IMG/VR virus record: IMGVR_UViG_2579778535_000016
Location: 1-14,511 of that record
Strand: one strand, 5' to 3'
DNA from: a virus
Taxonomy: Duplodnaviria > Heunggongvirae > Uroviricota > Caudoviricetes
DNA length: 14,511 nucleotides
The translations under genes were made by a program, and so were the position numbers. Below, one piece after another: positions 4,022 through 5,035 of the stretch. The notes beneath the pieces were generated by a model that saw only the letters and a program-made list of their open reading frames with translations, did no database searches and was not told where the DNA came from. Position 1 is the first letter of the stretch. Each line of letters starts with the position of its first letter.

Positions 4022-5035
4022 ATGAGAAAAACGATCACATTATCAGGAAGGATATACTGGGTAGACGCATTGCGTTTCATTGCTATGTTTCTAGTGTATA
4101 TAGGGCATCTTGGACCATCTGCTGGTAGAATTTATAGCTTTGTATATCTTTTCCATGTTCCACTCTTCTTCTTTATTTCAGGTATGTTTTACAGAAATAC
4201 AGGAACACTTTGCGACACAGTAAGAAATGGATTTGCAAAGCTCATAGTGCCTTATTTTACTTATTCATTACTGTCTCTTATAGTGTACATCCTTTTCTTG
4301 CAGAAAGATTCTTCACAGGTTTATCCTTTAATTATTCAGATGCTTGAAGCAAAGAGAAACTTTATAGATTATGCACCTCAGTTGTGGTTCTTGCCATGCT
4401 TGTTTATTGTAATGTTAGCATTCAAATTTATACATATGATAAGCAATAGCAAATTAATAATTGTTGCCATATGCTCAGCATCTATGGTTGCAAGTATTTA
4501 TATACCAAGGAATCCTGTTTCAATTTCGCCACAACTGCCATATGCGCTTGACAGTGCTGGATATTATGTATTCTGGTATTGCGTAGGATATTTATTAAAA
4601 GATGTGGTTATTTCATTTTTTAATGAAATAAATATTTATACAAATTCTGTTTTTATATGCGCTATATTTTTTGCGGGTTTTTGTTTCTTTGGGTTGATGA
4701 AACCATACGACACACTGATAGTAAACTTACTAGGCGGTAAGACTTATGCTTTGATTTGGACCGTGCCGACATTAATCTTGTTCATTGCTTGCGTGCCTGT
4801 AGCAAAGGCTCTATCAGATCTTAAACCAGTAAGATACCTTGGAGGAAACACACTTTTCCTTTGTGGAAGCGAGCAGATAGCTAAAACAACATTCATTGCA
4901 CTGATCGGCATTTCCGGACATGCTCTCAATATTGGAGATGAATATTATTCATTTGTGTATATATCATTACTTATGTTGCTTGTTTATGCATTCAAAAAAA
5001 AATTAGACGCCTGGAATGATAAAACCCCGGACTGA
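4022..5035 (+). CDS. Acyltransferase family 3 integral membrane protein (O-antigen O-acetyltransferase-like), 337 aa
   Basis: N-terminal motif WVDALRFIAMFLVYIGH... and a strongly hydrophobic multi-pass sequence typical of OafA/Oac-type acyltransferases. The gene is visibly AT-rich relative to its flanks. Sits between integrase and tailspike, as oac does in Shigella phage Sf6. Confidence 0.8.
   Translation: MRKTITLSGRIYWVDALRFIAMFLVYIGHLGPSAGRIYSFVYLFHVPLFFFISGMFYRNTGTLCDTVRNGFAKLIVPYFTYSLLSLIVYILFLQKDSSQVYPLIIQMLEAKRNFIDYAPQLWFLPCLFIVMLAFKFIHMISNSKLIIVAICSASMVASIYIPRNPVSISPQLPYALDSAGYYVFWYCVGYLLKDVVISFFNEINIYTNSVFICAIFFAGFCFFGLMKPYDTLIVNLLGGKTYALIWTVPTLILFIACVPVAKALSDLKPVRYLGGNTLFLCGSEQIAKTTFIALIGISGHALNIGDEYYSFVYISLLMLLVYAFKKKLDAWNDKTPD

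What the first reader, a model, noticed from the sequence alone, without database searches (positions are those of the whole stretch)
4994..5002. A9 homopolymer tract inside the 3' end of the acyltransferase coding sequence
Nine consecutive A residues encode KKK 12 codons before the stop. Slippage here would change the C-terminal tail of the membrane protein. Together with the upstream hexamer array and the A7 tract in the Bro-N gene, this accessory region is enriched in slippage-prone repeats.
Basis: seen in the sequence. Interest (0 to 1): 0.2.

Follow-up and report, generated by a model that had tools for sequence, protein, structure and literature searches.

The report
Incidental A9 run in acyltransferase tail
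The nine-A run is real, but it looks like a chance, lineage-specific string of three lysine codons just after the last membrane helix of a prophage acyltransferase, so slippage there only trims a 10-residue tail and it is an ordinary mutational weak spot rather than a genetic switch.

Summary
A9 is present at 4994-5002 as codons 325-327 (KKK) of a 337-aa AT3-family acyltransferase (4022-5035, +). The gene lies in an E. coli prophage between an Mnt/Arc-like gene and a convergent tailspike gene.

- **Chance:** A run this long is not unexpected. It appears in 11% of dinucleotide shuffles of this 35%-GC gene and in 27% of window shuffles. A/T runs of 7 or more in the accessory region match expectation (2 observed, 1.95 expected).
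- **Conservation:** The tract is not conserved. Four homologues at 56-72% identity read AAA-GCA-AAG, AAA-TCA-AAG, AAG-ATG-AAA and AAA-ACA-AAG.
- **Variation:** It exists but is rare. One E. coli assembly and one read-set assembly carry A8 (product ...FKKN*, 327 aa). The exact A9 product is indexed in 64 collection blocks. The predicted A6, A7, A10, A11 and A12 products are absent from 15 billion proteins.
- **Consequence:** The run lies 3' of every family motif and every hydrophobic helix. Both alternative frames stop within 1-5 codons, before the terminator hairpin. Slippage therefore swaps or removes a 10-residue tail that is unconserved across the family.

Verdict: an incidental slippage-prone run. 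It is a mild hotspot for replication, transcription and translation errors, not a phase-variation or recoding device. Low interest. The upstream hexamer VNTR (6-10 copies) and the frameshifted ant gene are the more informative neighbours.

The parts
4994..5002 (+). A9 homopolymer, three in-frame AAA codons (Lys325-327)
   Evidence: Read directly. It is the only A9/T9 in the window. It is A8 in L001 and L002 and A9 in L003-L008.
4022..5035 (+). AT3-family (Acyl_transf_3) integral-membrane acyltransferase CDS, 337 aa, 34.9% GC
   Evidence: Pfam PF01757, E=6.7e-25, 88.3 bits against a cutoff of 31. R18-X10-H29 and FFFISG(49-54) motifs are present (sequence; motif definitions from PMC7448272). AF2 model pLDDT 94.6. 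The exact protein is found in E. coli assemblies.
4940..4993 (+). Codons 307-324, the hydrophobic part of the last helix (EYYSFVYISLLMLLVYAF), immediately before the KKK
   Evidence: In the AF2 model, DSSP helix 307-334 runs through the KKK.
5003..5035 (+). Ten tail codons (LDAWNDKTPD) plus TGA; this is the part lost or replaced after slippage
   Evidence: Translation. The tail is variable in length and sequence among homologues and has no majority residue in the 67-sequence family alignment.
5004..5006 (+). TAG stop reached after loss of one A (A8 or A11 reading frame), giving ...FKKN*
   Evidence: Simulated. Observed as protein P0125 and in the DNA of L001 and L002.
5017..5019 (+). TGA stop reached after gain of one A (A10 or A7 reading frame), giving ...FKKKIRRLE*
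   Evidence: Simulated. This product is not found in the protein collection.
5023..5044 (.). G+C-rich hairpin that acts as the intrinsic terminator of the convergent tailspike gene (- strand). The acyltransferase stop codon sits in its loop, and the hairpin begins 20 nt after the A9.
   Evidence: Terminator scan: - strand, 9 pairs, then TTTTATCA. Folds of -20.8 and -21.7 kcal/mol, z = -3.7 and -3.1. The same layout, with compensatory stem changes, occurs in L009-L012.

Best explanation
The A9 run is an incidental product of lysine-codon choice (AAA x3) in an AT-rich, horizontally acquired prophage gene. The three lysines form a positively charged patch right after the last hydrophobic helix of an AT3 acyltransferase. 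I infer they act as a cytoplasmic 'positive-inside' anchor.

A nine-base A run is intrinsically slippery at three levels:
- Replication, where a one-base loss or gain can occur. This is shown by one A8 allele.
- Transcription, because A9 is about the length at which E. coli-type RNA polymerases begin to slip. This step is inferred from the literature.
- Translation, because an A_AAA_AAA heptamer and iterated AAA codons promote frame loss. This step is also inferred from the literature.

All of these errors have the same small outcome. The enzyme keeps residues 1-326, and the 10-residue tail LDAWNDKTPD is replaced by N or by IRRLE, because both other frames stop within 1-5 codons. The tract is therefore a tolerated mutational and expression-noise hotspot. 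It is not an ON/OFF contingency switch and not a programmed recoding site.
For: 1. **Not conserved.** The four closest distinct homologues (56-72% identity, all in the same tail-to-tail position with a tailspike gene) have interrupted codons at the site: AAA GCA AAG, AAA TCA AAG, AAG ATG AAA and AAA ACA AAG. At protein level they read K-x-K.
2. **Expected by composition.** A run of 9 or more occurs in 7-11% of shuffles of the gene and 27% of shuffles of the window.
3. **Position.** The run is at codons 325-327 of 337. The R18-X10-H29 and FFFISG motifs, the Pfam match (residues 11-279) and every hydrophobic helix lie upstream.
4. **Alternative frames stop quickly.** A8 ends after 1 new codon and A10 after 5, both before the hairpin at 5023.
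5. **Tail unconserved.** Across 67 family members the tail has no majority residue, and it is shorter or different in homologues of 45-68% identity.
6. **Population data.**
   - The A9 protein is listed on 41 contigs and indexed in 64 collection blocks.
   - A8 is in 2 records with identical sequence over 2,348 nt, possibly the same isolate.
   - The A8 locus differs from A9 loci L004 and L006 by only that indel and one SNP in 11 kb.
   - Products of A6, A7, A10, A11 and A12 are absent from the collection.
7. **No frameshift stimulators.** The upstream sequence GTTTATGCATTC has no Shine-Dalgarno-like element, and the hairpin starts 20 nt downstream.
8. **Literature.**
   - Nine A or T is the length at which selection against slippage becomes evident in many bacteria (PMC1088944).
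   - E. coli RNA polymerase needs at least 7 T 'and even more adenine residues' to slip (PMC6260861).
   - Three or more consecutive AAA codons are selected against and promote ribosome sliding (PMC4363877).
Against: - The nearest homologues share a K-x-K-L-D/E-x-W tail motif, and AF2 models residues 325-334 as a confident continuation of the last helix. The tail may therefore contribute to stability or activity, which would make A8 a loss-of-function allele.
- Runs of 9 A and (AAA)3 are generally counter-selected in E. coli coding sequence (PMC1088944, PMC4363877). Persistence of A9 in dozens of isolates is therefore mildly unexpected, although these isolates are nearly identical in the region.
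- An A8 allele in an otherwise identical background shows that the tract does change on short time scales.
- Membrane topology was not computed with a dedicated predictor. The cytoplasmic location of the tail is inferred.
Confidence: 0.8

Rival explanations
1. Contingency locus. Slipped-strand mispairing at A9 switches the acyltransferase between an active (A9) and an inactive (A8 or A10) form. This would give phase-variable surface-polysaccharide acylation in lysogens.
For: - The A-run length is within the range that slips.
- One A8 allele occurs in a clone otherwise identical over 11 kb.
- AT3 genes elsewhere are phase variable, for example H. influenzae oafA by tetranucleotide repeats and Salmonella oafB epigenetically (PMC9558356).
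- The nearest homologues share a tail motif.
Against: - The tract sits at 96% of the CDS, after all motifs and helices. The frameshift products keep 326 or 327 of the 337 residues.
- The tract is absent in all four homologues examined.
- Only one variant length has been seen, in 2 records that may be one isolate. The A9 product is in 64 collection blocks and no A10 has been found.
- A singleton A5-to-A4 indel in a flanking chromosomal gene of another assembly shows that such one-off indels also occur, or are mis-assembled, at ordinary short runs.
Confidence: 0.06
2. Programmed recoding. Transcriptional slippage on A9, or -1 ribosomal frameshifting on A_AAA_AAA, deliberately makes a fixed ratio of full-length and tail-less isoforms, as in Thermus thermophilus dnaX.
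For: - The geometry matches T. thermophilus dnaX: an A9 run late in the CDS with stops close by in both other frames (PMC1088944).
- The heptamer is in the correct 0-frame register.
Against: - The run is not conserved among homologues.
- The isoforms would differ by only about 10 unconserved residues.
- There is no upstream Shine-Dalgarno-like stimulator. The only hairpin starts 20 nt downstream rather than the usual 5-9 nt, and it is explained as the tailspike terminator.
- E. coli RNA polymerase slips poorly on A runs compared with T runs (PMC6260861).
Confidence: 0.05
3. The tract is stable in nature, and the single A8 record is a sequencing or assembly error at a homopolymer. In that case there is no real length polymorphism.
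For: - Only two A8 records exist, and they are 100% identical over 2,348 nt, so they may derive from the same read set.
- Another assembly of the same clone shows a singleton A5-to-A4 indel elsewhere.
- One short contig in the cluster carries two T6-to-T5 errors (P0127 and P0128).
Against: - Two different assembly pipelines (an NCBI TPA assembly and Logan) both call A8.
- L001 has no other indel in 11 kb, including at the T6, T7 and A7 runs.
Confidence: 0.09

Closest known systems
Thermus thermophilus dnaX A9 transcriptional-slippage site (described in Baranov et al. 2005, PMC1088944)
   Same: Both have a run of nine A in the sense strand late in the CDS. In both, the other two frames hit a stop close to the run, so slipped transcripts give a C-terminally shortened product.
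   Different: - In dnaX the truncation removes a functional domain (tau versus gamma) and the site is used. Here only 10 unconserved residues are affected and the run is absent from homologues.
- Slippage at the RNA level was not measured here.
Phase-variable AT3 gene oafA of Haemophilus influenzae, which has tetranucleotide repeats (reviewed in PMC9558356)
   Same: Both are AT3-family surface-glycan acyltransferase genes carrying a simple-sequence repeat inside the CDS.
   Different: - oafA expression is reported to switch on and off (PMC9558356). Here the repeat lies at the 3' end, so slippage only alters the last 10 residues.
- Here the repeat is nearly invariant among isolates.
Serotype-converting phage O-acetyltransferases: Oac of Sf6 and OacD of SfII (PMC9558356)
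   Same: - All are stand-alone AT3 proteins of about 330 aa encoded by temperate phages in the int / tail-spike accessory region.
- The SfII acyltransferase is the best phage hit: 26.7% identity over 97% of the query, E=2e-23.
   Different: - Identity is only about 27%, and Sf6 oac was not detected at E<=1e-5.
- The acceptor sugar and the phenotype are unknown here.
- I found no report of a homopolymer tract at this position in those genes; this was not searched exhaustively.
Iterated AAA lysine codons that cause ribosome sliding (Koutmou et al. 2015, PMC4363877)
   Same: Three consecutive AAA codons, the class reported as under-represented in E. coli ORFs and prone to frame loss.
   Different: Robust effects in that work were described mainly for longer inserts, and the paper's minimum length was not checked in full. 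Here out-of-frame termination costs only the last 10 residues.

Membership tests
AT3 / Acyl_transf_3 (PF01757) membrane acyltransferases (the gene that holds the tract) | Significant match to the family profile | tested here: met
   PF01757 E=6.7e-25, 88.3 bits against a cutoff of 31, residues 11-279. All 120 listed homologues carry PF01757.
AT3 / Acyl_transf_3 (PF01757) membrane acyltransferases (the gene that holds the tract) | R/K-X10-H motif in TMH1 and FFXISG motif (Pearson et al. 2020, PMC7448272) | tested here: met
   R18-(10 residues)-H29 and F49-F-F-I-S-G54 are present in the translation. H29, F49, F50 and G54 are invariant in the 67-sequence alignment.
AT3 / Acyl_transf_3 (PF01757) membrane acyltransferases (the gene that holds the tract) | Polytopic fold of about ten transmembrane helices, stand-alone architecture | tested here: inconclusive
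   The AF2 model (pLDDT 94.6) is all-helical, with 10-11 hydrophobic helices and no extra domain. No topology predictor was run, and no solved AT3 structure was found by sequence.
AT3 / Acyl_transf_3 (PF01757) membrane acyltransferases (the gene that holds the tract) | Acyl transfer to a surface glycan (O-antigen) | not testable with these tools
   Inferred only from family membership and from the prophage position next to the tailspike gene.
Simple-sequence contingency locus (phase variation by slipped-strand mispairing) | Repeat placed so that a length change switches the product ON or OFF (5' CDS or promoter) | tested here: not met
   The tract is at codons 325-327 of 337. The frameshift products retain 326 or 327 native residues.
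Simple-sequence contingency locus (phase variation by slipped-strand mispairing) | Frequent tract-length polymorphism among and within strains | tested here: not met
   - A9 is present in all 6 fetched loci that encode the full-length product, and the exact A9 product is in 64 collection blocks.
- A8 is in 2 records that may be one isolate.
- No products of A6, A7, A10, A11 or A12 were found.
- Within-culture heterogeneity is not testable here.
Simple-sequence contingency locus (phase variation by slipped-strand mispairing) | Repeat maintained across alleles or homologues | tested here: not met
   The tract is interrupted in L009-L012, and the protein alignment shows K-x-K.
Programmed transcriptional slippage site | A or T run of about 9 or more in an organism whose RNA polymerase slips at that length | tested here: met
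   A9. The threshold comes from the literature (PMC1088944; PMC6260861). It is borderline for A runs with E. coli RNA polymerase.
Programmed transcriptional slippage site | The alternative frame yields a distinct, conserved product, and the run is conserved in orthologues | tested here: not met
   The alternative tails are N* and IRRLE*. The run is absent in homologues.
Programmed -1 ribosomal frameshift (dnaX type) | X_XXY_YYZ heptamer in the 0-frame register | tested here: met
   A_AAA_AAA spans codons 325-327.
Programmed -1 ribosomal frameshift (dnaX type) | Stimulators: an upstream SD-like element and/or a structure about 5-9 nt downstream | tested here: not met
   The upstream sequence GTTTATGCATTC has no SD-like motif. 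The only stable hairpin starts 20 nt after the run and is the tailspike terminator.

The most novel reading that the evidence does not exclude
The A9 run would act as a low-frequency DNA- or RNA-level slippage site producing a subpopulation of tail-less, inactive or unstable acyltransferase. Lysogens would then be heterogeneous for a surface-glycan acyl group. That would matter here because the convergent tailspike of the same prophage family carries a GDSL/SGNH esterase-like domain and might read or remove such acyl groups.
Probability: 0.05. Interest if true: 0.4.

Novelty: already known. Interest (0 to 1): 0.08.

Why it matters
It matters little in itself.
- **Annotation:** the 327-aa '...FKKN' proteins in databases are A8 slippage alleles, or errors, of the 337-aa enzyme.
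- **Sequencing:** the site is a likely place for homopolymer miscalls.
- **Triage:** phase-variation hunting should move away from this tract. The better targets are the polymorphic hexamer array upstream of the gene and the broader pairing of an acyltransferase with an esterase-like tailspike.

Tried and rejected
- **Near-identical DNA.** Megablast of 3900-5100 found nothing in the phage collection or in 5,426 complete E. coli genomes.
- **Flank pattern.** TTGCTTGTTTATGCATTC-N{4,16}-TTAGACGCCTGGAATGA had no match in genome, viral or metagenome contigs. Allele comparison therefore had to come from the protein-cluster route.
- **Other tract lengths.** Exact look-up of the predicted A6, A7, A10, A11 and A12 products found none.
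- **T9 as part of the tailspike terminator.** The T9 on the minus strand is not the U-tract of that terminator. It lies 21 nt beyond the hairpin, which has its own TTTTAT tail, and no stem directly precedes it.
- **Hairpin as a -1 PRF stimulator.** Rejected on spacing (20 nt) and because the hairpin is conserved in homologues that lack the slippery run.
- **Homopolymer enrichment of the accessory region.** Rejected by shuffling.
- **Solved AT3 structure.** A sequence search to place the tail found none.
- **C-terminal truncation data.** None found in the OacB mutagenesis paper.

Full report
**Observation**

Window 4994-5002 is AAAAAAAAA on the + strand. It is in frame as three AAA codons, Lys325-327, of ORF 4022-5035 (337 aa). 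Ten further codons (LDAWNDKTPD) and a TGA follow. The run is the longest homopolymer in the window; all others are 7 nt or shorter.

**Is it more than chance?**

No.
- One or more A9/T9 occurs in 51 of 200 dinucleotide-preserving shuffles of the window.
- In my own Altschul-Erickson shuffles it occurs in 10.8% for the gene, 20.8% for the accessory region 1159-5035 and 26.8% for the window.
- Mononucleotide and codon shuffles of the gene give 7% and 9%.
- The gene is 34.9% GC in a 47.9% GC window and uses AAA for 12 of its 16 lysines.
- The accessory region holds 2 A/T runs of 7 or more against 1.95 expected, so it is not enriched in homopolymers.

Real E. coli coding sequences do tend to avoid 9-nt A/T runs and three consecutive AAA codons (PMC1088944; PMC4363877). 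The run is therefore mildly unusual for a resident gene, but not for a recently acquired AT-rich one.

**What the gene is**

- The product matches Pfam Acyl_transf_3 at E=6.7e-25, 88 bits against a cutoff of 31.
- It carries the R/K-X10-H motif (R18...H29) and the FFXISG motif (FFFISG, 49-54). Both are defined for AT3 acetyltransferases in PMC7448272. The corresponding residues are invariant in a 67-sequence alignment.
- An AlphaFold2 model built on that alignment is confident (pLDDT 94.6, pTM 0.91) and all-helical.
- The last helix spans residues 307-334. Its hydrophobic part (EYYSFVYISLLMLLVYAF) ends at residue 324, and the KKK follows immediately.
- I infer that the lysines are a membrane-flanking positive patch and that the tail is cytoplasmic. 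Literature describes stand-alone AT3 proteins as having ten TM helices (PMC9558356). I did not test topology with a predictor.

**Genomic context**

- An integrase lies at 1-1158.
- An immI-like region follows, holding an Mnt/Arc-like gene (3514-3921), a small Arc-like gene and an ant-like gene on the minus strand.
- The acyltransferase comes next, tail to tail with a 744-aa tailspike gene (5049-7283, minus strand). The tailspike has a Tail_spike_N domain and a GDSL-like domain.
- The exact protein occurs in E. coli assemblies, in a prophage inserted next to mlaA and a formate/nitrite-transporter gene.
- The best phage relative is the SfII acyltransferase, at only 26.7% identity.

**Consequences of slippage**

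Loss of one A gives ...FKKN* (327 aa; TAG at 5004-5006). Gain of one A gives ...FKKKIRRLE* (332 aa; TGA at 5017-5019). Either way residues 1-326 are retained. That span includes all motifs, all hydrophobic helices and at least two of the three lysines. Both alternative stops lie upstream of the hairpin at 5023-5044.

The four closest distinct homologues for which DNA was fetched are 56-72% identical. Each sits in the same tail-to-tail arrangement with a tailspike gene. At the equivalent codons they read AAA GCA AAG, AAA TCA AAG, AAG ATG AAA and AAA ACA AAG. At protein level this is K-x-K, so the homopolymer is specific to the E. coli allele.

The tail itself shows a K-x-K-L-D/E-x-W motif in the nearest homologues. 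In homologues of 45-68% identity (P0004, P0006, P0007, P0009-P0011) it is shorter or unrelated. It has no majority residue across the 67-member alignment.

**Comparison among isolates**

The 90% cluster has 12 distinct sequences.
- The 337-aa A9 product is listed on 41 contigs and indexed in 64 blocks of the contig collection.
- Six further distinct members that cover the C-terminus also read KKK-LDA(W/R)NDKTPD.
- One member, P0125 (327 aa, HGC4292395.1), ends in FKKN, exactly the A8 prediction.

Its DNA was recovered from an NCBI TPA assembly (GCA_044698185.1, L001) and from a Logan assembly of SRR31121501 (L002). Both have A8, while six other E. coli loci have A9. L001 and L002 are identical over 2,348 nt, so they may be one isolate. 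L001 differs from A9 loci L004 and L006 by only the tract indel and one SNP in 11,009 aligned bases.

The predicted products of A6, A7, A10, A11 and A12 are not in the 15-billion-protein collection.

As a control, another assembly of the same clone (L007) has a singleton A5-to-A4 indel in a flanking chromosomal gene. One short contig shows two T6-to-T5 changes in this gene (P0127 and P0128). One-off homopolymer indels, real or artefactual, are therefore not peculiar to the A9.

Scans for the tract flanks with a 4-16 nt gap found nothing in species-representative genomes, viral contigs or metagenome contigs. Megablast found nothing in phage records or complete E. coli genomes.

**Mechanism**

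*Shown:*
- The run exists.
- An A8 allele exists in at least one record.
- The outcome of a one-base change is a tail swap.

*Inferred from the literature:*
[quoted passage not shown] The T. thermophilus dnaX A9 has the same geometry, a late run with nearby stops (PMC1088944).
- E. coli RNA polymerase is much less prone to slip on A runs than on T runs (PMC6260861).
- Consecutive AAA codons promote ribosome sliding (PMC4363877).
- The heptamer A_AAA_AAA is in register for a -1 shift. It has no Shine-Dalgarno-like element upstream, and the only hairpin starts 20 nt downstream.
- That hairpin is the intrinsic terminator of the tailspike gene on the minus strand (9-bp stem followed by TTTTAT). 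It is conserved, with compensatory changes, in homologues that lack the A-run. It is therefore not a frameshift stimulator tied to the tract.

My best reading is an incidental, tolerated slippery run whose errors are nearly neutral (confidence 0.8). The rivals are a phase-variation switch (0.06), programmed recoding (0.05) and 'the A8 record is an error, so there is no polymorphism' (0.09). The last rival differs from the best reading only in whether the single variant is real.

**Comparison with known systems**

The site works like any long A-run in a coding sequence. Formally it resembles the T. thermophilus dnaX slippage site.
- It fails the defining tests for a contingency locus on position, polymorphism frequency and conservation.
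- It fails the tests for programmed slippage or frameshifting on conservation, a distinct product and stimulators.

The gene itself is a clear AT3-family member of the stand-alone, phage-borne, serotype-converting type (Oac/OacD-like by architecture and context). It is only about 27% identical to the nearest characterised one.

**Novelty and score**

The phenomenon is already known, and the instance is ordinary. Interest is 0.08.

The most novel reading not excluded is slippage-generated heterogeneity of glycan acylation that interacts with the esterase-like tailspike. It has a probability of about 0.05 and would be of moderate interest.

Noticed in passing
window 3922-3972 (also L003-L008 around 5891-5960): A perfect hexamer array (CAGAGG/GAGGCA, 8.5 copies) begins right after the stop of the Mnt/Arc-like gene and ends 50 nt before the acyltransferase start. 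It has 6, 7, 8 or 10 copies in E. coli loci that are otherwise almost identical over about 7.7 kb. It is by far the most variable site in the region, and no convincing sigma-70 promoter lies between it and the gene. It could modulate acyltransferase expression.
   Followed up: partly
window 2561-3270, minus strand; run at 2965-2971: The ant-like antirepressor gene is split into a Bro-N ORF (2932-3270) and a P22_AR_C ORF (2561-2965) exactly at the A7 run.
- Adding one base restores a 236-aa protein that is 70-73% identical end to end to intact Ant of phages SPN3UB and JEP4.
- E. coli 55989 has an intact 87%-identical homologue reading CGT AAA AAA GTG where the window has CGA AAA AAA -TG.
- The frameshift is fixed in all 7 related E. 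coli loci.
- The 0-frame CGA AAA AAA is an A_AAA_AAA heptamer, and a -1 shift there would restore the full-length frame. Whether this is a pseudogene or a recoding site remains open.
   Followed up: partly
window 5023-5044 and 5033-5035; L009-L012 equivalent positions: The acyltransferase stop codon TGA lies in the loop of the terminator hairpin of the convergent tailspike gene, so the last four codons (K-T-P-x) are the 5' arm of the stem. The same layout is kept, with compensatory stem changes, in four homologue loci of 56-72% protein identity. The extreme C-terminus is therefore constrained at the nucleic-acid level.
   Followed up: partly
window 5049-7283 (minus strand) with 4022-5035; L011 4001-7233: An AT3 acyltransferase is paired tail to tail with a tailspike that carries a GDSL/SGNH esterase-like domain (PF00657, 26.8 bits against a cutoff of 23.6). 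Homologous acyltransferases always sit against a tailspike gene, but the tailspike's catalytic part varies: pectate-lyase-like in L009 and other types in L010 and L012. This may be an acylation/deacylation pair relevant to receptor use and superinfection exclusion.
   Followed up: no
window about 7730 onward, compared with L001-L008: The window is more than 99.9% identical to the E. coli loci from the integrase to about 7730 and then diverges sharply. This marks a mosaic joint just upstream of the tailspike gene, so the int-to-tailspike module is shared between different prophage backbones. L005 also carries a divergent integrase segment (about 40 SNPs in 57-1098).
   Followed up: no
window 4616-4672 (T6 runs at 4616-4621 and 4667-4672): Several public assemblies break contigs inside the acyltransferase gene around residues 175-200 (P0122-P0124, P0126). 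One ENA sequence has an in-frame 33-nt deletion removing NEINIYTNSVF (P0130). One Logan contig has T6-to-T5 at both runs (P0127 and P0128). This very AT-rich stretch appears to be poorly covered or error-prone.
   Followed up: no
L007 about 1660 (flanking chromosomal formate/nitrite-transporter-like gene): A singleton A5-to-A4 indel near the 3' end of the gene changes the called product from 310 to 338 aa in one TPA assembly. It is useful as a control for the rate of one-off homopolymer indels in these assemblies.
   Followed up: yes
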